Part shown: positions 21,966-40,335 of the stretch, piece by piece
Position numbering within the stretch: position 1 is the first letter of the stretch
How the letters are laid out: each line of letters begins with the position of its first letter
IMG/VR virus record: IMGVR_UViG_3300022555_000004
Reading direction: 5' to 3' (one strand)
Source: a virus
Lineage: Duplodnaviria; Caudoviricetes
DNA: 64,000 nucleotides
Notes under the pieces: generated by a model
What the model saw: the letters and a program-made list of their open reading frames with translations, nothing else
What the model was told of the DNA's origin: nothing
The model's database searches: none
Program-made: the position numbers and the translations under genes

Positions 21966-21975
21966 TACTTCACCG

Positions 21976-22239
21976 TTATTCGATACCCAAATATTTTAAT
22001 AATTGTTTTCCTAAAAATTTTCTTCGTGCTAATGTAACACGGTCATTGGTATGCCGTAATGCTTTATGTGATTCGACAAGCAATTCCAATAAAATTTCAT
22101 CGGGATATTTGTCATCACCGATACCTAACGACCTAATATATTTTCTAACCAATAACATTTTCATCATCCTTCCAATCATCGTTTTCATTACACATTTTAC
22201 ACATATCCCACAATAACGACATTTCAAATCCAATTTCAT
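21976..22239 (-). CDS. Hypothetical protein (start uncertain)
   Basis: ORF track; likely starts further downstream. Confidence 0.5.
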   Translation of the reverse strand: MKLDLKCRYCGICVKCVMKTMIGRMMKMLLVRKYIRSLGIGDDKYPDEILLELLVESHKALRHTNDRVTLARRKFLGKQLLKYLGIE

Positions 22240-22513: not shown

Positions 22514-22514
22514 T

Positions 22515-23213
22515 TTAAAATAATTTAACTATACGACAAATAGTTGATTTTGCCACATTTAGTTGTTTTCTTATTTCATGTTGTTTCATACCATTGTCTA
22601 TCATTTGTTTTACGAGATTGATATCAACAGGTTTTGATGTTTTTCGTATTTCTTTAGTGTAAATCATATCCTTATTTTTTTCAAACTTTTCAATATCTAC
22701 ATGTTGTAATTGATGACAATTTGAACATAGAACCGAACATTTATTTAATTCATTTTTTATACTTTTTTCAATATCATCAATGGTATCCCATCGTTTTATA
22801 TTAGTTACATCGCCAATGTTAAATAATTTATCATCTTTATGATGAAATTCCAACGCCTTGTTGCATTTATTATATCCGCATATTTCGCATTTAAAAATAT
22901 CTTTAAATATCAGACAGATTATTTTATTTGTTCTGTCACGATTTTGTATTTCATAATTATAATGTTCTTCTATATGACAGTTTCCACATAATAATATACA
23001 TTTTTTGGCTTCTTTTTTTATGTTAGATAAACTCAAAGAAAATCTAATTCCGTGTGTGCCCATTTTGGTATCTTTGTCATTTTTATTGACATGATGAAAT
23101 TCTAATAGGTGAATATTTGTTTCACCACAAACGGTGCATTTTCCACCAAGTTCGTTAATTACTTCAATCCTTTTTACCCATCTATTAATATATTCATTTT
23201 CACGTTTTGTCAT
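22515..23213 (-). mobile_element. Tandem-HNH endonuclease with C-terminal HTH
   Basis: Two C..CG...LEFHH...KC..LC.NCH modules; free-standing next to tRNAs. Confidence 0.85.
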
Positions 23214-23290
23214 AAGTTCAAATCCTCTAATAATATTATTTATTAAAATGCTTGAACTTTGTATTCATTAGTTATGATAATATTATAAAA

Positions 23291-23380
23291 TGCGGAAGAA
23301 CGGGGAATCGAACCCCGACTGCTGTTTAGACAGTTTTGTTTAGCAAACAAACGTAACAAACCAATATTTACCTTTCTTCC
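23291..23380 (-). tRNA. tRNA-Ser (GCT)
   Basis: UUUGU-UU-GCU-AA-ACAAA; long variable arm. Confidence 0.9.
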
Positions 23381-23386
23381 ATATTT

Positions 23387-23475
23387 TGGCGGCAGGAACA
23401 GGTTTCGCACCTGCATCCGTGATTAGCGGCGACACTTTTCAAGAGTGCTTGGCCCTCTATACTGCCCATCCTGCC
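23387..23475 (-). tRNA. tRNA-Ser (TGA)
   Basis: GCACU-CU-UGA-AA-AGUGU; long variable arm; GCCA. Confidence 0.88.
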
Positions 23476-23740
23476 ATATATTTTATACTTCACGATAATT
23501 GAAAACTAATCCTTCCCCTCTAAGGAATTTGCTATATTGCCTTGCGGGGCCCAAATCAATGTGTGAAGTCGTTTTCTTTCCATGTTTGCTCTGTATCTTG
23601 TTAGGCAAACCGATTTTTGTATATTTGTCCATAAATTCAGCATTTCCTAATGCTCTCTCTCTTTCAACGTTACAACTTTTGCCTTAACTGCCTTAGCAGG
23701 TGCTTGGATAATTCTTTCCATTATTTATATTTCCTTTCAA

Positions 23741-23935
23741 TTATTCTGTCATGTGTTCAACAACTTTTGTGATAATACCCACAACCAATGCCACTGGAAG
23801 ATAAATCCAGAACAAAAACATCATCAATTCAGTAGCTTGTACCCTAACTAAAATTTGATAAAGTAAATAAAACCAAATAGGCATAGTTACTAAAAATCCT
23901 AAGATAGAGCTAACCACTTTCAATTTATTTTTCAT
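23741..23935 (-). CDS. Small two-TM membrane protein
   Basis: Hydrophobic; RBS. Confidence 0.7.
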   Translation of the reverse strand: MKNKLKVVSSILGFLVTMPIWFYLLYQILVRVQATELMMFLFWIYLPVALVVGIITKVVEHMTE

Positions 23936-23995
23936 ACGCTTCCTTTCATCTTTTTATAATATACCAGACTTTTCATATTTTGTCAAATAAAATAT

Positions 23996-24070
23996 TGGTA
24001 GGGATGGCCGGACTTGCACCGGCACTGTACACGGTTTAAGCGTGTTGACTCTGCATTGGCCTACATCCCC
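23996..24070 (-). tRNA. tRNA-Leu (TAA), short variable loop
   Basis: ACACG-CU-UAA-AC-CGUGU; CCA. Confidence 0.85.
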
Positions 24071-24078
24071 ATTTATTT

Positions 24079-24156
24079 TGGTAGCCGAAGAAGGATTTGC
24101 ACCTTCAAAAATCTTAATTTTGAGTTAAGAATGTCTGCTAGTTGCATCATTCGGCC
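24079..24156 (-). tRNA. tRNA-Leu (CAA), short variable loop
   Basis: CUUAA-CU-CAA-AA-UUAAG; CCA. Confidence 0.85.
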
Positions 24157-24304
24157 TTATATTCAATCAATTTCGGTTGTTCATTATACTCAGCATTACA
24201 AACCATTGATATTCTTTGTAATAATTTGTAATAATCGTCCGGTTTCAATTGTTTTTTCAACTCATGTATATGTAGTATAATTTTCTTAATTTGTAAATCA
24301 ATCA

Positions 24305-25036
24305 TTATACCTCGGAACCCGCCGGCAACGCTTTGTCAAACAGGGTATCTAAATCCAATTCAACCAATTCTGCCGTTCCATCCTCAATAGATTTCATTTG
24401 TTCGTTCATTTCGTTCATTTCTCTATCACGATCTTCTGGTGTGCCAACAAAGGAAAGTTCCCAAATAATACTACGAATAAAATCATATAAATTCAAATAG
24501 CCCTGTTCCATACCATTGTAAGTTTTTTCGTCAATAATTTTATATTTGTCAAATGTTGTAATTCTAGTCACATCTGGCTCAATGATTAGTGGAACATCAA
24601 GTAATTTGCCCAATGGTGTAAATTCAATAGCATACCGAACAACCCCTTTTTCATCAGAACCAACACCATCAAATTCAATGTAATTATCGTATTCAGTTAC
24701 TTTTCCGTTTGTATCTAATTCAATGTTATTTATTCGTCCTACACAAAGATGTGTCAGTCCACAAATACATTCATCTGTTTTTGTTTGATAATATTCATCA
24801 ATAAAAAATGGGAAAAAGTTATCAAGACGGATAAAGTCAGGATTATTTATAATCATAAGAAAATAATCTCTCAATTTATATCCAACTTCTAATTCAATAA
24901 TATTATACTGTAATGCGTGAAAAATATTATTGGTAACAATAGGGGCAATAACAATCACACCACTATCAGTTTTGTCATCATATACCCATTTTCTAGTATA
25001 TATTTTACCACCTTTTTTTAAAATTAATCCATCCAT
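24305..25036 (-). CDS. Hypothetical protein
   Basis: 243-aa ORF with RBS. Confidence 0.8.
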   Translation of the reverse strand: MDGLILKKGGKIYTRKWVYDDKTDSGVIVIAPIVTNNIFHALQYNIIELEVGYKLRDYFLMIINNPDFIRLDNFFPFFIDEYYQTKTDECICGLTHLCVGRINNIELDTNGKVTEYDNYIEFDGVGSDEKGVVRYAIEFTPLGKLLDVPLIIEPDVTRITTFDKYKIIDEKTYNGMEQGYLNLYDFIRSIIWELSFVGTPEDRDREMNEMNEQMKSIEDGTAELVELDLDTLFDKALPAGSEV

Positions 25037-25046
25037 ATTTTACCCC

Positions 25047-25430
25047 TTATTTTAGTATAATTCCTTTGTCTAATATCAAATTACATTCTTCCATAGCAGT
25101 CATAGAGTTCATATCCCATACGGCGACAGCACGATAGTAATCAAATCCTGATAGTCTATTTTTCAACCATACAAAACCACCTACACATGAATATAATTCT
25201 ATATCTTCTCTGGTGCTGACGACCCAATAAAGATCATCTTCATATTGGTCTGTCCATCCTAAAAGTTTTACAACTTTAAAGGGCGAATCATACACCAATT
25301 CGTTTCGATGTTTATTTACATCACGTTGAATTGTCTTGTCGTTATCCCATCCAAGGGCTTTATTTATATAGTGTTCCATTCTTCTCTTTGGCTGTTCAAT
25401 ACACTTCCAATAAAAATCTAATTTATCCAT
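25047..25430 (-). CDS. Hypothetical protein
   Basis: Stop-start overlap with upstream gene. Confidence 0.75.
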   Translation of the reverse strand: MDKLDFYWKCIEQPKRRMEHYINKALGWDNDKTIQRDVNKHRNELVYDSPFKVVKLLGWTDQYEDDLYWVVSTREDIELYSCVGGFVWLKNRLSGFDYYRAVAVWDMNSMTAMEECNLILDKGIILK

Positions 25431-26134
25431 TATACTTTACCTCTGAAAGATGTTTTCAAATCAAAGCCATGCCCCATGATTTTATACTTATCGTCAATCT
25501 TTATTTCAGGCATCATATCAGGTGATTCCTTCATTACATTACCCACGAAATAAGACAAGTGTTGATACATTTCATTTGCTGATATAAATGAAGCAACCCC
25601 GATTTCACCAAGTTTTGGTGTCATATCGTGTATTATGATACTGTTTCTATATGTATTGAACATGAATACAGGGGATCCAACTATTCGGCATAAAGCTATA
25701 AGTGTTTCATCTTTATGATTTATATAATCAGAATATTGTGGCCCTTTTCCCCACCAACTATATTTTGGTTCTTTGATGTCAGATTTTTTGACAAGTCTAT
25801 ATGGTTCATCTGATTTCATTTTTATTTGTGTGAAAAAAATATCACCAACAACTATACCTCTTACTTCTGGATTATAATCATTACGACCATCAAAATATGA
25901 ACCATAGAGGTCATAAGCATTTCCAACACTGTCACATCTTGTTTTCCATTGATCATCTAAAGTTGTATAGTATCGGTGTCCTTGTTGAGCATAACGTATA
26001 AATTCACGTCTAATATCAATTTGGTCAGCGATATTTTGTTTATAAGGTCTTACATAAACAATTTTTGGATCACCGCCACCGTATATATGGGCAATGTGGT
26101 CGTAATAATCGCGAAAGTTGCTTTTAATTATCAT
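25430..26134 (-). CDS. Hypothetical phage protein
   Basis: MII.SNFRDYYD N-terminus and DK.KI..HGFD.K.SFR C-terminus. Confidence 0.8.
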   Translation of the reverse strand: MIIKSNFRDYYDHIAHIYGGGDPKIVYVRPYKQNIADQIDIRREFIRYAQQGHRYYTTLDDQWKTRCDSVGNAYDLYGSYFDGRNDYNPEVRGIVVGDIFFTQIKMKSDEPYRLVKKSDIKEPKYSWWGKGPQYSDYINHKDETLIALCRIVGSPVFMFNTYRNSIIIHDMTPKLGEIGVASFISANEMYQHLSYFVGNVMKESPDMMPEIKIDDKYKIMGHGFDLKTSFRGKV

Positions 26135-26683
26135 GTTTGTTTCCCTTCTAAATATCGTTTTTTAGCATCACGCATTTTTTGTTTGGCTTCTTCTGTATGT
26201 TTTTTTCCTGTCATACCAACACGATTTTTACACATATTTTCTATATGTTTTTTTGATAAATGTCTGCCTTCTAAGCTTTTGCTTATATTATTTTTTTGCG
26301 CTGGTGTTCTTTTTTTCCCTGTTATTGCTTTTACTCTTTTTTCTACCCAACTATCGGTTTGTTTTTTGCCAATTTGTCTAATACTTTTCTTTTTATTTTG
26401 TTCATCAGAAAATTTATACCCATATGTTCCGTCACCACCCCATGTCAAGTTATACCCATTGCCTTCACTAACATGGCTATGATTTACAATAATTTTGAAT
26501 GTTTCCATCACATTCAAAACTAAAATATCATCACATTCATAAATAATTTCCCATTTAAAATTGTCGTGGCCATATTTGTTTAGAGCATTATAAAAATAGA
26601 TCGATATGCCCTCTTTATGTGTACAACATAGGTGTTGATTTTTTCTTTTCTTTAATGTTCCTGTAGTTAGTTTTTATAATCAT
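26131..26683 (-). pseudogene. 5'-truncated GIY-YIG/NUMOD3 endonuclease
   Basis: FKWEIIYECDD, GYNLTWGGDG and NUMOD3 present; GIY and YIG motifs missing; preceded by MIIKTNYR, a copy of the downstream gene start. Confidence 0.7.
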
Positions 26684-26875
26684 TTACATCATCGCTTTCT
26701 TGTTCGCTATTCCCGAATACCGAATATCTAATCGTTTTACGGTTTTTGTTTTTATATTTGTCCGGTTTTGGATGTTTACTAGCATTGTCCATGCCACCAT
26801 GCCATGGACAACGTGTACATTTACCTGTTTCATTACATACTTTTTCTTTGTAAATTCGTCTGAATGCTTTTGAAT

Positions 26876-27022
26876 TTACACATTCATCATCAAAACAAAA
26901 CCATAAACCATTGAGTGATCAACCAATGCACACCAATCTTTACTCTTATTGATTGCCATTTTATCTGTTTGACATAGAAAATCAGCAACCCAATGTATAA
27001 ACAAAATCCAATACATCAACAT
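26876..27022 (-). pseudogene. Truncated DUF3307-like membrane protein fragment
   Basis: IHWVADFLCQT..MA..K...L..H motif; only 48 aa. Confidence 0.5.
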
Positions 27023-27041
27023 GATATACTACCTTTCTATT

Positions 27042-27422
27042 TTAATTCATGTTCCGTTCAATCAAACCGAACAGGACTTTTTCAAATACCGTCAAGTCAG
27101 GCATATATTCAGATTTATAATCAACGTTGATTAATGCTTTATCACGAACATTTAGTTCATCAATAACAAGAACATCAAAACAAACCGTATTGATTGCCAA
27201 ATCATTAACTTTGTTAAAAATGGCCTTTAACGCCCGACCACGAGCGATATCCCTTCCCGTTTTCTTTACAGGCATGTCCTCATATGAACAAATCGAAATA
27301 CCACGAGCATATTCATCCCCTTTTCTAACAACACAAATCGTAACATACGGTACATTTTCACGATTCCTCAAATGATAGTAATAAATCTGGTCAACATTAT
27401 AGTTATTCGCTTTCTTCAACAT
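27042..27422 (-). CDS. Hypothetical phage protein
   Basis: RGISICS.ED...K.GR.IA.GRA pattern. Confidence 0.75.
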   Translation of the reverse strand: MLKKANNYNVDQIYYYHLRNRENVPYVTICVVRKGDEYARGISICSYEDMPVKKTGRDIARGRALKAIFNKVNDLAINTVCFDVLVIDELNVRDKALINVDYKSEYMPDLTVFEKVLFGLIERNMN

Positions 27423-27531
27423 TTTAATTTCCTTTCTTTTTTCTCTTTATTGTATCCTAAAATTGTGTAATTGTCAACATATATTTTGAATAAAGGAATG
27501 CCCTAGTTCAGACCAACTAGGGCATTCAATT

Positions 27532-27834
27532 TTATTTTTTAATGAAAAACATTTTATTCAGTCTTCGTTTGAACATTTTTCTAATAGACTTTGTTGTAGT
27601 CAAATATGTTCCAACACCACAACCAACCACATAACAAGCAAATCCAATATAGTCTTCATTCTTAATAATAAGCCAAGTTGAAGCCATACTAACCGTAGTC
27701 AACAGAATTGTATATACAGTTGCTTGTACATTTTTGAAAGCGTTTGTGGCCTGTATTTGTAAGCATAAAAGAATATCTATTACAAATCCAAATCCGAATA
27801 AACCCAAACACATCAATATTGTATTCTTTACCAT
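27532..27834 (-). CDS. Small multi-TM membrane protein
   Basis: Three hydrophobic segments; GAGGGG RBS. Confidence 0.75.
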   Translation of the reverse strand: MVKNTILMCLGLFGFGFVIDILLCLQIQATNAFKNVQATVYTILLTTVSMASTWLIIKNEDYIGFACYVVGCGVGTYLTTTKSIRKMFKRRLNKMFFIKK

Positions 27835-28002
27835 AAAAATTCCCCTCTCTATATATTACCCACACATTATCCTCACTGTGAGGTTACTTGTGGCTACATA
27901 GTTGGATTGGTGTATGCCTCCATTGACATATCTGCCGTTATCCTTGACTTTTTCTCTTATTATACAACACTTTTTGGAAAAAGTCAAGGATTATTATTTA
28001 CT

Positions 28003-28073
28003 TGGAACCCTTGTCGGGACTCGAACCCGCCGGCAAGACAGGCCCTCATTACTTCTTTTTCCAAGACCGTTCC
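28003..28073 (-). ncRNA. tRNA-like RNA with extended acceptor stem and T arm, no D or anticodon arm
   Basis: GGAAC(GG)UCUUG/CAAGG-GUUCC, CGGG-UUCGAGU-CCCG, ends UCCA. Confidence 0.5.
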
Positions 28074-28076
28074 TCT

Positions 28077-28310
28077 TTAACTCCGTTTTATTTCATATTT
28101 TTCACAAGCATCAATTGCCTCTTGTAGAGTATCAAAACCACTATACACAATTGAACCATTAATTCTTTTACCGTCATGATATGCCCAGTAACCATCTTTT
28201 TGTGTTTTTTCCCAGCCACCGCCATAAGTATAATGGAATAGATGGATACTATACAAACCGCTTTTCCATACCATGTAACAGGAATCACTATCAACTTTTT
28301 GAAATTTCAT
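28077..28310 (-). CDS. Hypothetical protein
   Basis: Overlaps upstream gene; F.TLQEAIDACE ending. Confidence 0.7.
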   Translation of the reverse strand: MKFQKVDSDSCYMVWKSGLYSIHLFHYTYGGGWEKTQKDGYWAYHDGKRINGSIVYSGFDTLQEAIDACEKYEIKRS

Positions 28311-28479
28311 TATTTTTTTCCTTTAGTAATTTATTCATACAGATTAAAGCATCCATATCTTGCTTCATACCACGCAATAATAATTCGGATACAAAATCAA
28401 CGCCTTCAAAACGTCCGAAAAACAATTGTTCACGGAACCGTTTTAACAACATTTTGTTATTCAATTCTTTTAAATCCAT
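28291..28479 (-). CDS. Hypothetical protein
   Basis: Own sigma70 promoter upstream. Confidence 0.65.
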   Translation of the reverse strand: MDLKELNNKMLLKRFREQLFFGRFEGVDFVSELLLRGMKQDMDALICMNKLLKEKNNEISKS

Positions 28480-28555
28480 ATCACTATCTCACTTTTTCCT
28501 TTGATTATAACACAAATCCTTGGATTTGTCAAGTGAAATTATTTACCTGTATGCT

Positions 28556-29704
28556 CTATTTTTTTATCAATCTAAATTTTGAATCCTTACCAAATGCTGT
28601 AGCATTTGATATAAATTCTTCTTCTGTTTGGCCAATCCATCGAAATATATTATGTGTTTTTGTTGTTGGCAAAAATCCGTGCATAAAGGTATACATCCTT
28701 GTTACACCTTTCACCAATTCATCCGTCCACTTATCACCGATATAAGAATTTCTTTTTAATGCAGTCAATGGTTCATATCTTTGTGGAAACAAAAAAATTG
28801 TTCTCCCAACATCATCTGTCATTTGTTGTGCTTTGATAATTCTTTTCCAAAAATCACTAGGACTATCCTTCCAATTAAATAACATATAACAAAAGAAACC
28901 TGCTTTTACTTTATATTTTTCGACATATTCTAACGCACGTCTGATATGCTTTTCGTATCCAATGAAATCAAAACTAAACCTCAAATATGCTGTTCCTTTT
29001 TCCTTTTGCGCCCCCCATTTCAATTCGCTAAATCTTTTTGCTTGATGTTCAGTAAATGACGATACATGAAGGCCATGTATGTCAACAGGTAAACCAAATT
29101 CAATCAGTTCATCTACTATATTATCAAAATATTCGTGTTCAGTGAAGTTATTATCATATAGAACAACACTTGTAGCATCAGGAATTTCCAATATGCCTTT
29201 TTGTAAAATGTTCTTTATAGATTTAAATGATTTCATACATCCTTCTAATGTAGGAACGGCACAATAACCACATTTATTTACACATCCTCTTGATGCATAT
29301 AAAACAATTTTTTTCGAGTCTGGACATACTGAATATTTTGGTGTCAAATTTTCTATTTCTTCACACATCCCACTAACAACCGTCACTTTACCTCTTGATA
29401 AAAATGGATTGGATGGAAATGTAGTATTGAACCACTCTGGATTTAAAGTAGGAAACGAACCACCTACAATTATTTCCGCCTGTGGATATTTTGTTCTATA
29501 AAAATTAATTGTATCCTTATATATTTCTGAATAAAACGAAAAAATGCACGAAATAAGTATCTTATCAGGTATAAACATTTCAGGGCTTTTACCGATAACA
29601 TACTTATATTCATGTTTATTTTGTTCGCACCATTCTGCCCATTTCATCAAGGCTATATTAGGTGCTATTGATTTAACCGATGGTTCAACTATAAGATATT
29701 TCAT
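28556..29704 (-). CDS. Radical SAM protein
   Basis: SRGCVNKCGYC (CxxxCxxC); YDNNF. Confidence 0.9.
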   Translation of the reverse strand: MKYLIVEPSVKSIAPNIALMKWAEWCEQNKHEYKYVIGKSPEMFIPDKILISCIFSFYSEIYKDTINFYRTKYPQAEIIVGGSFPTLNPEWFNTTFPSNPFLSRGKVTVVSGMCEEIENLTPKYSVCPDSKKIVLYASRGCVNKCGYCAVPTLEGCMKSFKSIKNILQKGILEIPDATSVVLYDNNFTEHEYFDNIVDELIEFGLPVDIHGLHVSSFTEHQAKRFSELKWGAQKEKGTAYLRFSFDFIGYEKHIRRALEYVEKYKVKAGFFCYMLFNWKDSPSDFWKRIIKAQQMTDDVGRTIFLFPQRYEPLTALKRNSYIGDKWTDELVKGVTRMYTFMHGFLPTTKTHNIFRWIGQTEEEFISNATAFGKDSKFRLIKK

Positions 29705-29705
29705 A

Positions 29706-30272
29706 TTATATCAATCTCTCCGTTCCCTCTGGCCATTCGCCATCATTTGTTTTTTTCCAATGAAAAAGGTCATTATGAATCATCCATTGTTCAGGCTTTG
29801 AACCATATAATTGTTGTAATTTCTCTCTTTTTGTTTTTCCACCAGCAATAATAACTTCATCCATATGGTTTATAATATACTTTGTAAAATCTTCTTTTGA
29901 AATGATAAAAACTTGTATATCATTTGGTTCTACCGTTAAAAAAGACAGATAATCATATTTTTGTTCTTGCCTAATTTGAAAGAATGTATATGTATTTGCT
30001 TTTAAACTAAGGCACGATCCTTTTAATTCAACTTTTGAACCATTAGTTAGGTTGTCTATGCGATAATCATAGTCGCTTTCTTTTTTATTTCTAATTTGAA
30101 GTTTCCATCCAGCATCAATAAGAAGCAACTTGACAAATTCTTCCATATCTGCTCCCTTTGTTTTTGGTGATTGTCTGAATATCCATTCGTTTCTGGAATC
30201 AATCCATGCACCAACCTTTTTCAATCTTTTTTCTTTTACTTTATCAACTATTGCCCATTGTCGTTTATTCAT
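29706..30272 (-). CDS. PD-(D/E)xK restriction-endonuclease-like protein
   Basis: DYDYRI...KVELKGS...FFQIR..Q.YD pattern. Confidence 0.5.
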   Translation of the reverse strand: MNKRQWAIVDKVKEKRLKKVGAWIDSRNEWIFRQSPKTKGADMEEFVKLLLIDAGWKLQIRNKKESDYDYRIDNLTNGSKVELKGSCLSLKANTYTFFQIRQEQKYDYLSFLTVEPNDIQVFIISKEDFTKYIINHMDEVIIAGGKTKREKLQQLYGSKPEQWMIHNDLFHWKKTNDGEWPEGTERLI

Positions 30273-30364
30273 ATATATCTCACTTTTTCCTTTGATTATA
30301 ACATAAATCCAAGGATTTGTCAACATAAAATAAAACCCCATGATATCATGGGGTTTCCTTATTT

Positions 30365-30438
30365 TGGTGCAACCGGCGGGAGTCGAACCCGCCTTTACTG
30401 GTTAAAGCCAGTTACTAAACCAGATCAGTTACGGCTGC
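30365..30438 (-). tRNA. tRNA-Lys (TTT)-like with 6-nt anticodon loop (possible 1-nt deletion error)
   Basis: ACUGG-CUUUAA-CCAGU; other arms canonical; CCA. Confidence 0.7.
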
Positions 30439-30443
30439 ATGTT

Positions 30444-30572
30444 TGGTAGGGTGTGCTTGGAATTGAACCAAGCGGCCACGTCATTATCAGTGAAGTAACT
30501 CTTATCTACACCACCGAATGGGGAACAAACGACAAAAGAAATTATCGTGCTCTAACACTGAGCTAACACCCT
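30444..30572 (-). tRNA. tRNA-Ile (GAT) interrupted by a 52-nt hairpin insertion (30494-30545)
   Basis: Removing the insert restores CGUCA-CU-GAU-AA-UGACG; acceptor, D and T arms intact; CCA. Confidence 0.75.
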
Positions 30573-30581
30573 ATATTGTTT

Positions 30582-30655
30582 TGGTCTGCGATCAAGGAGT
30601 TGAACCTTGTACATACGGGCCCAGGCCGTAGATGTCACCCATACACCAATCGCAG
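30582..30655 (-). tRNA. tRNA-Pro (TGG)
   Basis: C1 start; UACGG-CC-UGG-GC-CCGUA; CCA. Confidence 0.8.
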
Positions 30656-31178
30656 ATTATTTGAAATTTTTTCTAAATTTTTAATTACGTTTTTTGCTTT
30701 TATTCTATAAACACTATACCATACTTTTCTTTGCCTGTCAAGGAATTTTCTAATAAAAATGGGTTATAGAACACAAGTTTTAAATATCCTTATTTCCATT
30801 CTTTATCAGTAAACCACTGGATATTACTTATGATTTACTAACAAGGCGTTCTCTATAAGATTTCGTATAACTGGATGCCGAAGCATCATAACCCATTTTT
30901 GACAATAAAAAACGCCCAAACTTTTTAGGAGCATGGGCGGTTTTTGTGTACCTGTGTTGGAACTCGGCTAAAACACAAACCTCCACGCTTCCCTATAATA
31001 ATTTTTAGGTTCTTCTATGAGTATCGGTTTTGGCCCTAGTTCATTAAACATTTTTCTTCTTTCCTTTTCAATTAAAATTGCATAGAGGACTCATTTAATA
31101 TAATTTCTATGATTTGAGGCGGAGTCCTCTAGGTATGAATAATATTCTACCCTATTAATTTGCCTCACTGATTATTAT

Positions 31179-31772
31179 TTATAACATATTATTTTTCTTT
31201 GTCAACACTTTATTTTCTTTTATTCTATAATGTTTATTTATGAATGTTGTAATATTATTTGACCATAAAAGAGGCGCTTCCCCTTTGATTTTATTAGTAT
31301 CCTGTGGCCAATCCCACCAAGCAATATCTAATAATTTTTCAATAATATCCAGTTCAAATCTATACTTTACAACTCTTGCTGGATTACCAACTACTATAGA
31401 ATACGCAGGAATGTCTTTTGTGACCACAGAACCCGCCCCAACGACAGCCCCACTATGGATTGTGACGCCTGATAAAATTATAGATTTTGCTCCTATCCAA
31501 ACATCATTTTCAATTTGAATATTTCCTTTACATGCTGGATGACCTATATCCATATGCATTTTAGCAATTTCTGGTGTAACAGGCCCCCATAATTGAGAGG
31601 ACGTTGTAATCCAATCTGGCCTATGGTCTGCATGTAAAAAAAATGATGTTCCTCTACCTATGGAACAATATTTTCCAACTAATATTTTATATTGGTCAGA
31701 CCAACTTATGATTTCAATTTCTCTATCATAATATGACCCGATATTCATATGTAATAAATGTTCGTTTTCCAT
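31179..31772 (-). CDS. CatB/Vat-related hexapeptide-repeat O-acetyltransferase
   Basis: [44 protein letters not shown]. Confidence 0.9.
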
Positions 31773-31795
31773 ATTTCCTTATGCACAATAAAAAA

Positions 31796-31932
31796 ATGAC
31801 ATGTCCTGACGGGCGTGCCAGGTTCTATCGGTGTGTCATGTCACCGAGCAAATTTGTTTCCGAAGACCAATTCGGTTCCATATCGTCAGAGTTTGCTTAG
31901 CTCCTGATTAGCCAGAAGTCAACCGGCGTGTA
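31796..31932 (-). ncRNA. Candidate structured leader or small RNA upstream of the acetyltransferase
   Basis: GC-rich; stems GCCGG/CUGGC, GCAAA/UUUGC, UCGGUG/CACCGA, CUGACG/CGUCAG. Confidence 0.4.
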
Positions 31933-31941
31933 TCAAATATT

Positions 31942-32610
31942 CTATATTTTAATTTTTCGTCCTTTATGCCACCCTTTTTGTAAATATTCATCAATGTTGT
32001 TTTTATCAACTCTAGTACATTCCACATCATTATAAATCCAACATTTGCCGTACATAGGATTTTTAATACCAGACCTATTGATGTTTTTTTGCGTTTGTTT
32101 CATTTTTTCTTTTGTTTCATTTGTGTGGTGTTTGCCTTTAAATGTTTTACCGGAATTTTCTGATCTTCGTTTTTTAATTTCAGGATCATTACTTTTTACA
32201 TATGTCAAAAGTGTTTTTTCATAAGATTTTTTTCCATTTTCACTTCTTTCATTTTTTGTAAGAAGGGCAAGACCATTATCATATCCTTTTTTACCAACCT
32301 CTGTGGCTATTTTTGGATTTTTATATATATGATCCCAACCACCTTCACCGCCTCGTTTCAGATTATAAATCATTTTGTTTTTTACTTCATCATCTGTAAC
32401 CAATTCGGCTTCTTTGTCATCCATGTCTTTTTTGTTATCAAAGACATGAAGGACAATTTTCTCAAAACAATCTTTGCCATACTTGTTTATGGCATGTTTT
32501 AAAATCCTACCAGAACCAAGATATTCATCATAGATATTATCCGTTTGATGTTTACCTATATATGTTTTGCCATTCACCTTGTTTCTAACTTCATATATTG
32601 TGTAGTACAT
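31942..32610 (-). mobile_element. Seg-like GIY-YIG homing endonuclease
   Basis: YTIY...KTYIGKH, YLGSG, NUMOD3; sense TATAAATA at 32631-32638. Confidence 0.9.
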
Positions 32611-32671
32611 AATTTTTTTACCTCTACACCTATTTATAAAAAGTTCGATACTTAGTAAACAAATAATTAAA

Positions 32672-32744
32672 TGGGTGATCGGAGGAAATCGAATCCTCGT
32701 ACTTGGGGCCACGACCCAAGGTTCTTCCATTGAACTACGACCAC
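32672..32744 (-). tRNA. tRNA-His (GTG)
   Basis: UUGGG-UC-GUG-GC-CCCAA; C73. Confidence 0.85.
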
Positions 32745-32794
32745 ATCATGATTATTTGGAACACCCAAAGGCTCAACAAATAATGCTGTTCGTT

Positions 32795-32862
32795 GGGGGA
32801 ACATATCATTGAGTATCTTTCTGGCACAAAAGTTAAGTCAATGAGTGCCATATGTAACCCCC
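32795..32862 (-). ncRNA. Small pseudoknotted RNA between tRNAs
   Basis: GGGGG..ACAUAU/AUAUGU.CCCCC outer stem; GGCAC/GUGCC hairpin whose loop UCAUUGA pairs with UCAAUGA. Confidence 0.5.
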
Positions 32863-32867
32863 GATTT

Positions 32868-32940
32868 TGGTAGCCCATATGGTATCGATCCATAGTCGAA
32901 CGGTTATCATCCGTTTGCTCTTCCATTGAGCTACAGGGCC
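32868..32940 (-). tRNA. tRNA-Ile (GAT)
   Basis: AACGG-AU-GAU-AA-CCGUU; CCA. Confidence 0.88.
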
Positions 32941-32945
32941 ATGTT

Positions 32946-33020
32946 TGGCTGTGGGTAAAGGAATCGAACCTTCATTTTACACGTTAACAGCGTGCTGCAT
33001 TGCCGTTATGCTAACCCACA
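32946..33020 (-). tRNA. tRNA-Asn (GTT)
   Basis: GCACG-CU-GUU-AA-CGUGU; CCA. Confidence 0.92.
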
Positions 33021-33028
33021 ATATTTTT

Positions 33029-33092
33029 TGGTTGCGGACGGTAGTACCACCCTACCCGCTTTCCGGCGAGACACTTTTTCTCCATTTCCGCG
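33029..33092 (-). ncRNA. Anticodon-less tRNA-fMet mimic (64 nt)
   Basis: CGCGG...CCGCA-ACCA with C1:A72 mismatch; D arm shared with 33183-33259; anticodon arm replaced by CCG-GAAA-GCGG. Confidence 0.65.
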
Positions 33093-33104
33093 ATATTTGT
33101 TTTT

Positions 33105-33176
33105 TGGTAGCTAGTCAGGGTGTTGATCCCTATTGAAGAAGGATATGAGCCCTCTTTGATTACCGAATCCCTAGCC
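33105..33176 (-). tRNA. tRNA with CAT anticodon (Met or Ile2), shortened D arm
   Basis: GAGGG-CU-CAU-AU-CCUUC; T loop AUCAACA; CCA. Confidence 0.75.
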
Positions 33177-33182
33177 ATATTT

Positions 33183-33259
33183 TGGTAGCGGGCGCCATTA
33201 CTGCCATGGCTGATTTTCACCTTATGAGAGTGGTGAGACACTTTTTCTCCATGCCCGCA
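33183..33259 (-). tRNA. tRNA-Met (CAT), initiator-like body, degenerate T loop GGCAGUA
   Basis: CCACU-CU-CAU-AA-GGUGA; 1:72 mismatch; CCA. Confidence 0.7.
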
Positions 33260-33319
33260 TAATTTCCTTTATTTATAAAACATTGTAACATAAAATTGTC
33301 ATTTTGTCAAGTAATATTT

Positions 33320-33393
33320 TGGAGAGCCTATACGGAGTTGAACCGTAGTCTAATAGGTTGCAGCTATTCGTAATTCCGTTATACCATAGACTC
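33320..33393 (-). tRNA. tRNA-Cys (GCA)
   Basis: AAUAG-CU-GCA-AC-CUAUU; CCA. Confidence 0.9.
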
Positions 33394-37346: not shown

Positions 37347-38546
37347 TTATTCAACCTCAACTAAATTACAACGATTTATAACCGTTTGTTTCAACCCTTT
37401 GTATTCAGTATGTTTTGTTACTGTGGCTTTTCCAGTATAATGTCCGTCCACTTCTAAATTTACACTTTTAGTAAACCAAACAGCCACATTATCATTAATT
37501 GTTTTAAACATATAACAATTGGATGTTCCATATTGACTATCAAAAACTCGTTTGCTAATCAAAACCATATCAACATCAATACGTTCACCGATGTTTCCAA
37601 AATGATTAGAAATAGTTTTATCTTCGACTTTCTTCTTATTCAAATTCATAAAATAAACACCTACAATAGAGGCCGCCGTTGTTGCTGTTTTATATGTGAT
37701 ATACTCACGAGCAATAAGGCCTTTGATGTTTCTGATATAATCGGAAGTATTTTCTAATCCATTGACCCATTCAATAACGTGTTTATACGTTTTATCAACA
37801 CCATCACTTGCGGCTGTGTTTAATTCATCTTGCCAATACTTTTTATTATATTCAATGCCCCATACAATATCACCAGTTGCTGATAAATAATTATGGTCAA
37901 CATTCTCTCTGTTTTCTTCGGCATCTTTTCTTACCATTTTAGCAGAAATATATCCGTGTTTCTGAACACAGGCAATGGTTCGTTTCAAAAACATTTCAAT
38001 GTTTTGAACTTCAACGCCTCGTTTATACATTTTTCCATGTTCTTTATCCATCATATCATTCAATGTGTTGAATAATGTAGCATGGGACAATAACAGACTG
38101 GCATCAAATCCAAGATATGCCGTCAAACAAGTGCTTCCCACCTGATGGATTTCTTTTGTATCTGCTCTATAAACCAAATATGTATATTTACGATACCTGT
38201 CTGTATTGCAATGTTCGCAATAGGTGTCACTGTTCCAATACTGTTCAGGTATTTCAACATCATATATTTTTTTCATTATAATATTACCGTTTTTTGAATG
38301 TTCGGTAATCGCTAAGAAAGACCATCCATTCAAGGATACAACCGGATTGATAACATCAATATCATTGACTTCAACCATTTTATGAACATCAACATCATCG
38401 TCATTTTTGAAAATAATATCCTTCTGATATGACGGTGAAATCATGTAATCAATACGAATACCATCCATGCCGAGAATACGATTGTTCAATTCCTCTAGCT
38501 TTTTGGTAATTGTCTTTAATTTATAAGTCGGTATTGTATATTTCAT
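37347..38546 (-). CDS. Conserved phage hypothetical protein (CEHC, QVGSTCL; C-terminal OB-like)
   Basis: 399-aa ORF with own sigma70 promoter. Confidence 0.8.
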   Translation of the reverse strand: MKYTIPTYKLKTITKKLEELNNRILGMDGIRIDYMISPSYQKDIIFKNDDDVDVHKMVEVNDIDVINPVVSLNGWSFLAITEHSKNGNIIMKKIYDVEIPEQYWNSDTYCEHCNTDRYRKYTYLVYRADTKEIHQVGSTCLTAYLGFDASLLLSHATLFNTLNDMMDKEHGKMYKRGVEVQNIEMFLKRTIACVQKHGYISAKMVRKDAEENRENVDHNYLSATGDIVWGIEYNKKYWQDELNTAASDGVDKTYKHVIEWVNGLENTSDYIRNIKGLIAREYITYKTATTAASIVGVYFMNLNKKKVEDKTISNHFGNIGERIDVDMVLISKRVFDSQYGTSNCYMFKTINDNVAVWFTKSVNLEVDGHYTGKATVTKHTEYKGLKQTVINRCNLVEVE

Positions 38547-38963
38547 AATTTTATTGCCTTTCTTATTCTTTATATAACCGATTATACACTAATATAAAGG
38601 AAAAGTCAAGGTATTTTTGTATGTCAGTGGTGGCAGGGGATTGCCGGCGGGTTCCAGAGGATTGAATTTTACGCAAGAAAAAGGTTCAAGAAGTCTTATT
38701 ACCATCATTCTATTTATCAACACTCTGGTTGCCCAATCTGTTGGGAAATAGTTTTAGGGTTTATCGCTTTTGAACCTTATCTTGTTACAATCTAATTAAG
38801 TATCATCCTATAATTTATCTAATATAATTTACTTCTAGTCACTTCATTTCATCACCTGTTCCTTTACGTCTAAAGTTAAAAGTTTAAAACAAAAAATGGT
38901 TCAATATGGTAAACCGAACAGGATAAGAGTCATGGCCAATGAACGAGATATCCTTTTGATGTT

Positions 38964-39395
38964 GGAATTATAACCATTTGAACCGCGTCAGCCCTGATAG
39001 GAATTATGACCTGTTTGACAGGAATTATAACCGTGGCCAACATTTTTTTTGATTGATATATTATGGAATGAAAGAACATGTGGTATATGGTATCATTCCA
39101 AATATCAACCAATCATATCGTTGATTGAAGTCGGTTCTTTGTACCACCAAAAAACGTCCCTTATCAACAGATAAGTAAAGTAGGACTTACACCCAGCTGC
39201 CAATGGACTTATGCGGAATTACTGCCTGGTAGGACTTACCACCCTACGCCAATGGTCTTATTGAAGTCTGATCGCTAAACGTTGAATGGTATTTTCCCCG
39301 TTCAGGCTTATTGCCTCACGCCTTGGACTTACAAAGGATTTATAGCCTCATAGGACTTATAACCCACCGCCATCAAGGACTTACGTGGGAGTTTA
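38964..39395. repeat. Array of about 13 direct GG(A/T)(C/A/T)TTA-type motifs in non-coding DNA
   Basis: GGACTTA at 39183, 39205, 39232, 39325, 39353, 39377; GGAATTA at 38964, 39000, 39021, 39215; variants at 39254, 39305, 39336. Confidence 0.85.
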
Positions 39396-39866
39396 TCGCC
39401 TAAGTTGGAAACCAATAAAGTTGTGGTTCATTGGAAGGATCATTTAGCCTACCAACCGTTCCGCGGATTTCATAGTTAGTATCAATTACATATTTTTTCC
39501 TGTAATTGTAGGGTATTCAGCTTATTTCCCCTAGAAGGAATTGACCTTCACTATATGTCCACATACTTTTTGTTTCCGAGATAGGATAACATGGGCAGTT
39601 ACGCCCAATAACACCTATCGTTTTGATTGATAATGGGAATCGAACCCATATAAACGATGTAGTATCGTTTGTTTGACCATATTAAACTACATCAATCAGT
39701 TTACTGATACTTGGGTGTTGCACCCGCAACGTATATCTACGCGTCACTGCGACTTATCAGTATTGTATGGTTGGGGTGCTGGATGTTTGCGATCCAGATC
39801 CTGACTGTTTTTTTGAGAGGAATTGCGCCTCTATTGTAGGATAACTATTAATTTTTCCCAACTCAT
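39145..39866 (-). ncRNA. Candidate ~720-nt structured ncRNA with serial T-loop hairpins
   Basis: TTGACA-17-TATACT promoter at 39872-39900; at least 5 T-loop-like hairpins; terminator-like CUUAUC-UGUU-GAUAAG...U6 near 39150; no ORF. Confidence 0.55.
39625..39696 (-). tRNA. Degenerate tRNA-like module with CUA at the anticodon position
   Basis: AUUGAUG/UAUCAAU acceptor, GUUU/AAAC D stem, AACGA-UACUACA-UCGUU, UUCGAUU T loop; A33, C37, no CCA. Confidence 0.5.
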
Positions 39867-39929
39867 AATTCAGTATAACAAACTTTGATATGTTTGTCAA
39901 CTATTTTAATTTTTTAAATCTAATTTTTA

Positions 39930-40117
39930 TTTGTGGTAGGGATCAACCCATTTTCGTGAATATTACCAAAATAATTGTTAGACTCAATTCCCTGAGGCTT
40001 TTGGAGAACCAATCTTTATAGGTAACTGACGTATCGTGTTGACTATCGTAACTGACCGTCTGATGTGGTTCCCTCACTCATTAAATACATTATAACACAC
40101 TAAAATCAATATGTCAA
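39930..40117 (-). ncRNA. Short non-coding transcript with sigma70 promoter (40089-40117)
   Basis: TTGACA-17-TATAAT; first 24 nt identical to 1661-1684; twin TCAGTTAC; ends GGGUUGAUCCC-UACCA. Confidence 0.45.
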
Positions 40118-40128
40118 TGATTATTTTT

Positions 40129-40335
40129 TTAATATTTTAAACTCTTGGATATATCATCGGGATTTTCTTTTCCTATGATATCCAATACATTTTTATATGC
40201 TTCAATACTTCTCACGGCATGAAATATAATAGCGGATACTTTAGCCCCGTCTTTACATGCCTGATAGAACAACGCACCTTCCCTTGTTGCTTCTCCGTAT
40301 TTTCTTTTTATCTCCATTTTCTTGATTGTTTCCAT
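40129..40335 (-). CDS. Hypothetical protein
   Basis: GGAG RBS. Confidence 0.65.
   Translation of the reverse strand: METIKKMEIKRKYGEATREGALFYQACKDGAKVSAIIFHAVRSIEAYKNVLDIIGKENPDDISKSLKY

What the first reader, a model, noticed from the sequence alone, without database searches (positions are those of the whole stretch)
39520..39866. Chain of T-loop hairpin modules including a CUA-anticodon tRNA-like unit
Seen: from one promoter, successive hairpins AGAGG-CGCAAUU-CCUCU, CUGGA/UCCAG, GGG-UGCAACA-CCC, AUGGG-UUCGAUU-CCCAU, UGGGC-GUAACU-GCCCA and GAAGG-UCAAUU-CCUUC, most inside closing helices. One unit is a near-complete cloverleaf. With the repeat array the transcript is ~720 nt. Known: GOLLD-class giant phage RNAs can embed tRNA-like parts. 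Inference: a multivalent tRNA-elbow mimic or giant ncRNA.
Basis: partly seen in the sequence, partly recalled or inferred. Interest (0 to 1): 0.68.

Follow-up and report, generated by a model that had tools for sequence, protein, structure and literature searches.

The report
tRNA-shaped unit inside phage noncoding RNA
An uncultured T4-like lake phage reads, from one strong early promoter, a gene-free RNA made of separately folding hairpin modules, one of which is a complete tRNA shape carrying the stop-codon-reading triplet CUA in an abnormal loop; it most likely serves at least as a cutting mark for the host's tRNA-trimming enzymes, and whether it also reads stop codons is open.

Summary
All six hairpins are at the stated places on the minus strand. 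That many perfect hairpins never arose in 2000 shuffles, and the fold is strand-specific (z -3.4 against -1.6).

One unit (39625-39696) is a true tRNA fold: Rfam 41.5 bits, and 36.8 bits with a model built from this phage's other tRNAs. Its loop, UACUACA, puts A at position 33 and C at 37, and TAG is an ordinary stop in this window. The other hairpins are not tRNA-like; three resemble this phage's own UGCAAnU T-loops only weakly (E 0.09-1.7). GOLLD, ROOL and every other Rfam family fail to match.

Relatives at 60-68% identity of the neighbouring protein keep the same 1-1.4 kb gene-free gap and promoters. Four of seven locus types carry tRNA-like cloverleaves there, all with 5-6-nt loops that cannot decode. 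One of these, L086, shares flanking sequence with the window's unit.

Best reading: a modular, tRNA-punctuated early noncoding RNA precursor. No expression data could be obtained.

The scan had already described the 3' half of this RNA in this genome, and anticodon-less tRNA-like modules in other phages. This is a new variant of a known kind.

The parts
39872..39900 (-). Promoter P2 (TTGACA-17-TATACT with TG extension). The transcript should start near 39866.
   Evidence: 11 of 12 matches. It is one of 34 near-consensus sites whose strand follows gene orientation. Relatives have promoters at matching places.
39767..39866 (-). Domain 1. An outer helix (AUG.AGUUGGG / CCCAAC.CAU) encloses hairpin 1 (39832-39816, loop CGCAAUU, inside a second helix and followed by an A-run) and hairpin 2 (39797-39779, loop CGCAAAC).
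   Evidence: Fold. Hairpin 1 gets a local T-arm hit of 8.6 bits, E 0.09. The preQ1 look-alike scores 17.1 bits against a cut-off of 39 and was rejected.
39702..39762 (-). Domain 2, a 61-nt four-way junction ('mini-cloverleaf'). It has an 8-bp closing helix UACUGAUA/UAUCAGUA, a 3-bp hairpin, a 5-bp hairpin with GNRA loop GAUA, and hairpin 3 (39725-39713, GGG-UGCAACA-CCC). It is not a tRNA.
   Evidence: Folds. Only a 4.5-bit local T-arm hit. The closing helix resembles the tRNA's acceptor stem (5 of 8 pairs the same, two changed on both sides). The motifs UGAUA..AAG and AAGUAU..CA recur around a larger closed domain in L086. Both similarities are suggestive only.
39625..39697 (-). tRNA-fold unit. 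It has a 7-bp acceptor stem (plus a possible G-1:C73 pair), a 4-bp D stem with GG in the loop, a 5-bp anticodon stem with loop UACUACA (CUA at 34-36, A33, C37), a 3-nt variable region and a T arm AUGGG-UUCGAUU-CCCAU. CCA is not encoded.
   Evidence: ARAGORN. Rfam 41.5 bits. Own model R1, 36.8 bits. The alternative fold is a 7-bp stem with pentaloop ACUAC. Peer tRNA loops are listed.
39580..39619 (-). Domain 4. Helix GAUAGG/CCUAUC encloses a two-fold symmetric internal loop (UGUUAU on each side) and hairpin 5 (39607-39592, loop GUAACU).
   Evidence: Folds. Its start, GGUGUUAUUG, recurs at the same distance after the tRNA-like unit of L086.
39425..39558 (-). Conserved module that contains hairpin 6 (39549-39534). 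Its ends, GACAUAUAGUGAAGG and CCUUCCAAUGAAC, match GACRUAAAGUGAAG...CUUCCAAYGARC in relatives, where the two ends pair with each other.
   Evidence: Direct comparison of the sequences printed. The pairing choice in the window is not resolved.
39155..39400 (-). Array of RUAAGUCC-type hairpin repeats. This is the 3' half of the same noncoding region and the subject of earlier findings.
   Evidence: Repeats. Earlier notes e1-5379252 and e1-5389136. Not re-analysed here.
38676..38780 (-). Terminator-like end of the gene-free region. A long helix AAGGUUCAA/UUGAACCUU is followed by UUUUUC, just before promoter P3 (38609-38581) of the 399-aa gene.
   Evidence: Sequence. Relatives have clear hairpin-plus-U-run terminators at the matching place.
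39905..40117 (-). Upstream unit. Promoter P1 (40117-40089, 12 of 12 matches) drives a small RNA of about 180 nt with two GUCAGUUAC motifs inside a closing helix.
   Evidence: Matching motifs in L005, L083, L084 and L086.

Best explanation
The stretch is the 5' half of a gene-free early transcription unit of a T4-like lake phage. Host RNA polymerase starts at a near-consensus sigma-70 promoter (39900-39872). It makes a precursor of roughly 0.7-1.2 kb built from modules that each close on their own helix:
- domain 1 (two hairpins)
- domain 2 (a 61-nt four-way junction)
- a complete tRNA fold
- domain 4 (a hairpin with a symmetric internal loop)
- a conserved module
- the known hairpin-repeat array

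The tRNA fold is the only unit the host's tRNA machinery should recognise. Inferred step: RNase P cuts at its 5' end, and 3' enzymes plus the CCA-adding enzyme finish its 3' end. That frees three products: a 5' RNA of about 165 nt, a tRNA-sized RNA, and the long 3' hairpin-array RNA. The tRNA shape would thus act as built-in punctuation, as in polycistronic tRNA precursors, plant-mitochondrial t-elements and MALAT1/mascRNA.

The role this locus family shares is not decoding, because the equivalent cloverleaves of relatives have 5-6-nt loops. The window's copy keeps a 7-nt loop with CUA but has A33 and C37. At best it is a weak or specialised amber suppressor. The other hairpins are structural or protein-binding modules of the noncoding RNAs, not tRNA mimics.

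Shown here: the structures, the promoter consensus, tRNA-model membership, the abnormal loop, lineage specificity, and tRNA-like modules in relatives. Inferred: transcription, cleavage, and any function of the released RNAs.
For: 1. tRNA fold. Rfam scores 41.5 bits against a cut-off of 29. Model R1, built from 19 other tRNAs of this window, scores 36.8 bits. All four stems are fully paired, and U8, A14, G18-G19 and UUCGA are present.

2. Abnormal loop. The loop UACUACA gives A33 and C37. The variable region has 3 nt and CCA is not encoded. The minimum-free-energy fold makes a 7-bp stem with a 5-nt loop.

3. TAG is an ordinary stop here. 16 of 92 crude ORFs end in TAG, and Pfam domains end before it.

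4. Relatives. They keep the same gap and promoters but have no tRNA call. R1 finds cloverleaves in the gap of L008/L087 (26.5 bits, 6-nt loop), L011/L083 (13 bits, 6-nt loop) and L086 (20.5 and 16.9 bits, 5- and 6-nt loops).

5. Covariation in relatives. The L008/L011/L083 cloverleaf has 7 pairs changed on both sides. None of 500 shuffles reached that, and slid controls gave at most 2.

6. Shared flanks. L086's first unit shares AUUGAUGU, UCAAU and the downstream 10-mer GGUGUUAUUG with the window's unit.

7. Spacing. The linkers between the tRNA and its closed neighbours are 4-5 nt, as in the phage's tRNA clusters.

8. Modules. Strand-specific fold z-scores and the hairpin excess support real modules.

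9. Precedent. [quoted passage not shown]
Against: - No RNA evidence.
- The 39520-39866 sequence has no alignable relative except identical copies (L001-L004) and short blocks in L086. Its own structure therefore has no covariation support.
- Abnormal loops do not prove non-decoding in this phage. His, Pro and Gly-GCC tRNAs have C33 and Gly-ACC has C37. Phage tRNAs are also proposed to carry loop changes that evade host nucleases (PMC10264068).
- An earlier, unchecked note says the genome has a UAG-gated leader and another CUA tRNA, so CUA here may be no accident.
- The tRNA-like modules of relatives are of at least two kinds and sit in different contexts. 'Equivalent' rests on locus position, not on proven orthology, except for L086.
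Confidence: 0.5

Rival explanations
1. It is first of all an amber-suppressor tRNA gene. The unit is charged and reads UAG, and its odd loop is either an adaptation against host anticodon nucleases or a way to keep suppression weak. The surrounding hairpins are only leader and trailer structures that guide processing or protect the ends.
For: - The cloverleaf is perfect, all tertiary positions are present, and the scores pass threshold.
- CUA sits exactly at positions 34-36 of a 7-nt loop.
- Three clearly genuine tRNAs of the same phage have C33 and one has C37.
- Anticodon-loop changes in phage tRNAs are proposed to give nuclease resistance (PMC10264068).
- Earlier notes, not checked here, report a UAG-gated leader and a second CUA tRNA elsewhere in this genome.
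- The tRNA has a strong early promoter.
Against: - A33 together with a pyrimidine at 37 next to A36 is the worst case for reading a U-starting codon (established knowledge of U33 and purine-37 conservation). No peer tRNA has A33.
- TAG ends 16 of 92 ORFs in the window, and no reading frame is improved by reading TAG as sense.
- The only relative that shares its flanks (L086) has a 5-nt loop and a 3-bp T stem.
- This is the lowest-scoring tRNA of the window in Rfam.
- No related tRNA with this loop was found in IMG/VR or JGI contigs.
Confidence: 0.27
2. One reading: the whole transcript works uncut as one giant structured RNA. It would be of the GOLLD/ROOL class, or a scaffold that shows several tRNA elbows to a partner.
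For: - There are many closed modules and several GNRA-type loops (GCAA three times, GUAA, GAUA).
- The whole 737-nt fold scores z -2.5.
- GOLLD RNAs can carry tRNAs in their linker.
- The locus is conserved in relatives as a long gene-free unit.
Against: - No Rfam match at E <= 10.
- The flanking hairpins score only 4.5-8.6 bits as local T arms. Two have 6-nt loops, so there is one elbow, not several.
- The 5' half is not conserved even among relatives whose neighbouring protein is 60-68% identical. That does not fit a single co-folded architecture.
- The modules fold locally: minimum-free-energy fold equals centroid, and no long-range helices link the domains.
Confidence: 0.12
3. The stretch is evolutionary debris. 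A former tRNA array in an intergenic gap is decaying, and only T-arm-like stubs and one not-yet-broken pseudo-tRNA remain, with no function of their own.
For: - The 5' half is lineage-specific.
- L086 shows a graded series: a degenerate cloverleaf, a stub that looks like acceptor stem plus D arm only, and a cloverleaf without an acceptor helix.
- The window has other odd tRNA-like genes, including a 6-nt loop at 30365-30438 and an anticodon-less mimic near 33029.
Against: - The unit has no mismatch in any of its 21 stem pairs, while only the loop is odd. Random decay should hit stems too.
- The hairpin excess is strong (0 of 2000 shuffles) and the fold z-scores are strand-specific.
- A near-consensus promoter is kept directly upstream.
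- The cloverleaves of relatives show compensatory changes, which indicates selection for the fold.
Confidence: 0.08

Closest known systems
Polycistronic phage tRNA precursors, such as the T4 tRNA cluster with its co-transcribed small stable RNAs of unknown function (own knowledge; the T4 genome review could not be opened)
   Same: - T4-like phage.
- Early promoter.
- tRNA fold a few nucleotides from neighbouring structured RNAs.
- CCA not encoded.
- RNase P-type processing expected.
   Different: - Only one tRNA fold, with an abnormal anticodon loop.
- The companions are a 5' RNA of about 165 nt and a long hairpin-repeat RNA, not other tRNAs.
- The locus lies 6 kb from the phage's tRNA clusters.
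tRNA-like processing signals: plant-mitochondrial t-elements (PMC1920247) and MALAT1/mascRNA (own knowledge)
   Same: A tRNA shape inside a longer non-tRNA transcript, where cleavage by tRNA enzymes would define the ends of the neighbouring RNAs. The versions in relatives lack a decodable loop.
   Different: - Bacterial virus rather than organelle or nucleus.
- The window's copy still passes every tRNA test except positions 33 and 37.
- Cleavage has not been shown.
YrlA / bacterial Y RNAs with a tRNA-like domain (PMC4201824)
   Same: A noncoding RNA that joins a tRNA-like domain to helices with internal loops. Examples occur in phages. M. smegmatis YrlA is cut by RNase P and receives CCA. Yrn1 has a 6-nt 'anticodon' loop, as the relatives here do.
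   Different: - No Rfam Y-RNA match.
- No Ro60/TROVE protein among the ten neighbouring proteins scanned.
- In YrlA the domain order is circularly permuted. Here the tRNA fold has normal 5'-to-3' order.
GOLLD and ROOL giant phage RNAs
   Same: - Phage-borne.
- Long, many-hairpin noncoding RNA.
- GOLLD sometimes holds a tRNA in its linker.
   Different: - No covariance-model match.
- No conserved 3' core.
- Modules are local and turn over quickly.
- No evidence of oligomers.
Amber-suppressor tRNAs of stop-codon-recoded phages (own knowledge)
   Same: A phage-encoded tRNA fold with CUA at positions 34-36.
   Different: TAG is an ordinary stop in this window. The loop has A33 and C37 instead of the usual U33 and A37.

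Membership tests
tRNA (Rfam RF00005) | Covariance-model score at or above the gathering cut-off | tested here: met
   41.5 bits against a cut-off of 29. 36.8 bits with model R1, which was built without this sequence.
tRNA (Rfam RF00005) | Cloverleaf with 7/4/5/5-bp stems and the tertiary set U8, A14, G18-G19, U54-U55-C56 and A58 | tested here: met
   All 21 pairs are standard (one G-U). The tertiary positions were read directly from the alignment.
tRNA (Rfam RF00005) | 7-nt anticodon loop with U33 and a purine at 37 | tested here: not met
   The loop UACUACA gives A33 and C37. Among 19 peer tRNAs none has A33, three have C33 and one has C37.
tRNA (Rfam RF00005) | Aminoacylation and decoding | not testable with these tools
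   Needs acid-urea Northern blots and a reporter assay.
Amber-suppressor tRNA of a recoded phage | In-frame TAG codons, or TAG avoided as a stop, in phage genes | tested here: not met
   16 of 92 crude ORFs end in TAG. Reading TAG as Gln adds no domain to any of 8 extended frames. This covers the window only; the rest of the genome is not held.
tRNA-Pyl (the ARAGORN label) | Small D loop without G18-G19, one base between the acceptor and D stems, discriminator G73, non-canonical T loop | tested here: not met
   The D loop has 9 nt with GG, U8-A9 are present, the discriminator is C, and the T loop is UUCGAUU. Only the 3-nt variable region fits. The feature list comes from own knowledge.
GOLLD / ROOL | Match to the family covariance model | tested here: not met
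   No hit at the gathering threshold across the window, nor at E <= 10 in 38800-40300 or in 8 relatives' loci at E <= 5.
T-loop motif (5-nt U-(G/U)-N-R-A within a 7-nt hairpin loop; own knowledge) | Each of the six hairpin loops fits the motif | tested here: inconclusive
   - UUCGAUU fits.
- UGCAACA fits, and resembles the UGCAAnU T-loops of 5-6 of the phage's own tRNAs.
- CGCAAUU and CGCAAAC have C at position 1. That is seen in this phage's Thr-CGT T-loop but is off-consensus.
- GUAACU and UCAAUU have 6 nt and do not fit.
- Local model hits are only 4.5-8.6 bits.
tRNA-like processing element (t-element / mascRNA type) | Stacked acceptor plus T-arm helix able to serve RNase P or RNase Z | tested here: met
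   The 7-bp (or 8-bp) acceptor stem runs straight into a 5-bp T stem in the 39625-39697 unit. Domain 2 has 3 nt between these helices and does not meet this.
tRNA-like processing element (t-element / mascRNA type) | Cleavage at the predicted ends in vivo or in vitro | not testable with these tools
YrlA / Y RNA | Ro60 (TROVE) gene nearby and a Y-RNA model match | tested here: not met
   No Rfam hit. No TROVE domain in the 10 neighbouring proteins scanned. The rest of the genome was not scanned.
preQ1-I riboswitch | Model score, and a loop long enough to form the ligand pocket and second helix | tested here: not met
   17.1 bits against a cut-off of 39, E 1.9. The loop has 7 nt where the model has 12, and the tail has no complement to the loop.

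The most novel reading that the evidence does not exclude
tRNA-shaped domains with non-decoding loops may be working parts of a so far uncatalogued family of modular early noncoding RNAs in T4-like lake phages. They could act as decoys or sponges for host tRNA-targeting defence nucleases, or for tRNA-binding factors. The window's copy would then be a hybrid that shows a CUA loop; the run UACAU formed by the last four loop bases and the first stem base also matches a known MazF-type cleavage word (own knowledge). The neighbouring helix-closed modules and hairpin array would bind a phage protein, such as the conserved OB-fold protein encoded next door.
Probability: 0.15. Interest if true: 0.75.

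Novelty: new variant of a known kind. Interest (0 to 1): 0.45.

Why it matters
It adds a clear case to a pattern this scan keeps meeting: large phages build tRNA shapes into longer noncoding RNAs. The literature holds only scattered examples, namely GOLLD linker tRNAs, YrlA and organelle t-elements.

This locus family shows the range side by side. It goes from a unit that passes every tRNA test except two loop positions to cloverleaves with 5-6-nt loops. That makes it a good place to ask what a tRNA shape is kept for when decoding is lost: processing, stability, or acting as a decoy.

It is also a warning for annotation. The 'tRNA-Pyl/suppressor' call here should not be taken as evidence of stop-codon recoding.

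Tried and rejected
**Searches that gave nothing**
- The whole genome is not held.
- blastn of 39100-40130 against 50,697 phage records gave no match.
- An exact 23-mer of domain 4 is absent from IMG/VR.
- Loop-plus-T-arm pattern in IMG/VR: 65 hits, all chance matches in coding sequence or in variable arms.
- D-arm-plus-T-arm pattern in JGI metagenome contigs: 2 hits, both AT-rich tRNA-Trp genes beside membrane-protein genes (probably organellar), not relatives.
- Flank pattern ATTGATGT...TCAAT...GGTGTTATTG in IMG/VR: one chance hit inside a clamp-loader region.
- The search for related loci with the 399-aa protein found nothing. With a 25-sequence alignment it found only relatives at 26-38% identity, and these lack the gene-free locus.

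**Readings considered and dropped**
- preQ1 riboswitch reading of hairpin 1 plus the A-run.
- tRNA-Pyl.
- Recent duplication from a tRNA of the window: best identity is 65%, the background level among the peer tRNAs.
- A histidine identity inferred from the possible G-1:C73 pair. The phage's own tRNA-His has no encoded G-1, so no identity can be assigned.
- Protein coding: only a 47-aa TTG frame, and it overlaps the promoter.
- Other copies of the modules in the window: none beyond 11-14-nt chance words.

**Inconclusive or untested**
- A global alignment of the 5' half with L086 is unreliable outside the short blocks named.
- L086's region has a weak fold z-score of -1.4.
- The 399-aa neighbour gives only weak OB-fold (SSB/RPA-like) matches, E about 0.01. 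It is a lead, not a partner assignment.
- A T4-style R-loop replication origin (promoter without a gene) was considered but not tested. It would not explain the strand-specific RNA folds or the tRNA.

Full report
**Setting**

The window is part of a large uncultured T4-like phage. It holds 22 tRNA calls, an NAD-dependent DNA ligase, a ribonucleotide reductase and clamp-loader genes. It has 34 near-consensus sigma-70 promoters whose strand follows gene orientation.

Between the 68-aa gene ending at 40129 and the 399-aa gene starting at 38546 lie 1.58 kb without a credible reading frame. The minus strand there carries three strong promoters: P1 at 40117-40089 (12 of 12 matches), P2 at 39900-39872 (11 of 12) and P3 at 38609-38581 (11 of 12). 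The finding (39520-39866) is the first 350 nt behind P2.

**Observation**

All six hairpins are present as written. Perfect hairpins with at least 5 bp and a 6-7-nt loop number 6 in this stretch. The shuffle mean is 0.75 +/- 0.87, and none of 2000 dinucleotide shuffles reached 6.

The RNA of 39866-39698 folds into two closed domains, with the minimum-free-energy fold equal to the centroid. It scores z -3.43 (0 of 200 shuffles), while the opposite strand gives z -1.57. The stretch 39623-39415 gives z -3.0.

The anatomy is as follows:
- Domain 1, 39866-39767. An outer helix encloses hairpins 1 and 2.
- Domain 2, 39762-39702. A 61-nt four-way junction with a GNRA-capped arm and hairpin 3.
- The tRNA fold, 39697-39625.
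- Domain 4, 39619-39580. Hairpin 5 sits inside a helix with a symmetric UGUUAU/UGUUAU internal loop.
- Hairpin 6, 39549-39534.

**The tRNA unit**

ARAGORN calls it. Rfam scores it 41.5 bits against a cut-off of 29. A model I built from 19 other tRNAs of the window, without this sequence, scores it 36.8 bits. All 21 stem pairs are standard, and the D-loop GG and the T-loop UUCGAUU are canonical.

Several features are abnormal. The anticodon loop is UACUACA, so CUA sits at positions 34-36 but position 33 is A and position 37 is C. The variable region has 3 nt, and CCA is not encoded. The lowest-energy fold closes the arm into 7 bp with a 5-nt loop. This is the lowest-scoring tRNA of the window in Rfam. 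It is no closer to any peer tRNA (65% at best) than the peers are to each other.

This phage's tRNAs are unusual in general. His, Pro and Gly-GCC have C33 and Gly-ACC has C37. An odd loop alone therefore does not prove loss of decoding, and loop changes in phage tRNAs have been proposed to evade host nucleases (PMC10264068).

TAG is an ordinary stop in this window. 16 of 92 crude ORFs end in it, and reading it as sense adds no domain to eight extended frames.

**The other hairpins**

The loops CGCAAUU, CGCAAAC and UGCAACA resemble the UGCAAnU T-loops used by five or six of this phage's own tRNAs, and Thr-CGT even has C at the first T-loop position.

With filters off, the phage-specific tRNA model gives only short local T-arm hits:
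- hairpin 1: 8.6 bits, E 0.09
- hairpin 3: 4.5 bits, E 1.7
- around hairpin 6: a poor 7.5-bit alignment

No second cloverleaf was found. Rfam at E <= 10 finds nothing but the tRNA and a 17-bit preQ1 look-alike, which I reject because its loop is 7 nt where the model has 12. Hairpins 5 and 6 have 6-nt loops. So there is one tRNA elbow here, not a chain of them.

Some internal likeness exists:
- Hairpins 1 and 6 share CAAUUCCU, with two stem pairs changed on both sides.
- The motif CCUACAAU / CAUACAAU precedes three modules.
- Domain 2's closing helix resembles the tRNA acceptor stem.

With two copies each, these similarities are suggestive only.

**Relatives**

The 399-aa neighbour has 120 homologues. 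Contigs of the same phage are 100% identical over the region (L001-L004). The next relatives are only 60-68% identical in that protein.

They keep the layout: a gene-free gap of 0.7-1.45 kb, two or three matching promoters, RUAAGUCC-type hairpins and a terminator before the gene. L015 lacks the gap.

None has a tRNA call there. blastn finds no likeness to 39520-39866 beyond the promoter. The 5' half is therefore lineage-specific, except for hairpin 6. Its context, GACAUAUAGUGAAGG ... CCUUCCAAUGAAC, matches a conserved module of L008, L011 and L083.

The phage-specific tRNA model does find cloverleaves inside the gaps of four of seven locus types:
- L008/L087: 26.5 bits
- L011/L083: 13 bits
- L086: 20.5 and 16.9 bits

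All have 5-6-nt 'anticodon' loops. Rfam gives L086's first unit 21.8 bits, below its cut-off.

The L008/L011/L083 cloverleaf has 90% paired cells and 7 pairs changed on both sides. None of 500 shuffles reached that, and slid controls gave at most 2.

L086's first unit shares three blocks with the window's unit: AUUGAUGU at the acceptor start, UCAAU at its end, and the 10-mer GGUGUUAUUG at the same distance downstream. It is preceded by a helix-closed domain with the same UGAUA..AAG / AAGUAU..CA ends as domain 2.

The layout [closed domain]-[tRNA fold]-[hairpin] is therefore older than this phage, and in the sister lineage the tRNA fold cannot decode.

**Reading**

The simplest account is a modular early noncoding precursor in which a tRNA fold serves as punctuation. 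RNase P and the 3' tRNA enzymes would release a 5' RNA of about 165 nt, a tRNA-sized RNA and the long hairpin-array RNA.

A precedent exists for a tRNA-like domain in a noncoding RNA being cut by RNase P and given CCA when its acceptor stem has 7 bp (YrlA, PMC4201824). Organelle t-elements are the classic case (PMC1920247).

Whether the window's copy also suppresses UAG is open. I put that at about one in four as its main role.

The giant-RNA or multivalent-mimic idea is weakly placed, for three reasons: no family match, one elbow only, and rapid turnover of the 5' modules. Pure decay is unlikely given the flawless stems, the hairpin excess and the retained promoter.

**Limits**

- There are no expression data.
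- There is no whole genome.
- There is no covariation for the window's own modules.
- The other CUA tRNA and the UAG-gated leader reported by earlier notes lie outside the window and could not be checked.

**Relation to earlier work of this scan**

The 3' half of this RNA was already described in this genome (e1-5379252, e1-5389136). Anticodon-less tRNA-shaped modules in phage noncoding loci have been reported on other genomes.

This report adds five points:
- This locus's tRNA fold has an abnormal loop.
- It has an undecodable counterpart in a sister lineage.
- Other relatives carry covarying cloverleaves in the same gap.
- The flanking 'T-loop' hairpins are not tRNA mimics.
- TAG remains a stop in this window.

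Noticed in passing
window 39905-40117 (minus strand): A second gene-free unit sits behind a perfect 12-of-12 promoter. It is an RNA of about 180 nt with two GUCAGUUAC motifs 26 nt apart inside a closing helix. Similar paired motifs (GGUYWGUWAC) recur in L005, L083, L084 and L086. CAGUUAC is complementary to the loop GUAACUG of domain 4 (39601-39595).
   Followed up: partly
window 16847-33393 (tRNA clusters): - tRNA-His, tRNA-Pro and tRNA-Gly(GCC) have C33.
- tRNA-Gly(ACC) has A34 and C37.
- 30365-30438 has a 6-nt anticodon loop.
- Five or six tRNAs use T-loops UGCAAnU or UGCGAnn (G at position 55).
- Trp, Ala and Ile have A54, and Thr-CGT has C54.
- 20095-20167 is a tRNA-Phe(GAA) that ARAGORN missed.
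   Followed up: partly
window 37347-38546 (minus strand): The 399-aa protein that follows the noncoding locus in all relatives has no Pfam family. The AlphaFold2 model is confident (pLDDT 87.6), with beta-barrel domains at both ends. Foldseek matches these weakly to OB-fold single-strand-binding proteins (SSB, RPA, PrgE; E about 0.01). It also has invariant Cys/His residues (C110, H112, C113, C140). It may bind nucleic acid and could be a partner of the RNA.
   Followed up: partly
L008:3384-3454, L011:3177-3245, L083:612-680: A conserved tRNA-like cloverleaf with D loop AACGA, a 9-nt T loop UAUCGUAUC and a 6-nt 'anticodon' loop. It is inserted between the conserved words GGUAACUACA and GCUAGCAC of the small RNA. 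L005 and L084 have a plain hairpin at that place.
   Followed up: yes
L086:2632-2836: Three tRNA-related units stand in a row: a degenerate cloverleaf with a 5-nt loop, a stub of about 40 nt that looks like acceptor stem plus D arm only (2732-2770), and a cloverleaf with canonical D and T arms but no acceptor helix.
   Followed up: partly
window 39842-39833, 39771-39762, 39514-39505 (minus strand): The word AYCCUACAAU / ACCAUACAAU comes directly before three separate modules. Related words (ACUACAAU, ACGACAAAU) occur at the head of the RNAs of relatives. It may be a cleavage or binding site.
   Followed up: no
window 13948-15339 (minus strand): An RNA ligase with an N-terminal OB domain (Pfam PF09414 and PF21189) is encoded in the same early region. 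It may be relevant to tRNA repair.
   Followed up: no
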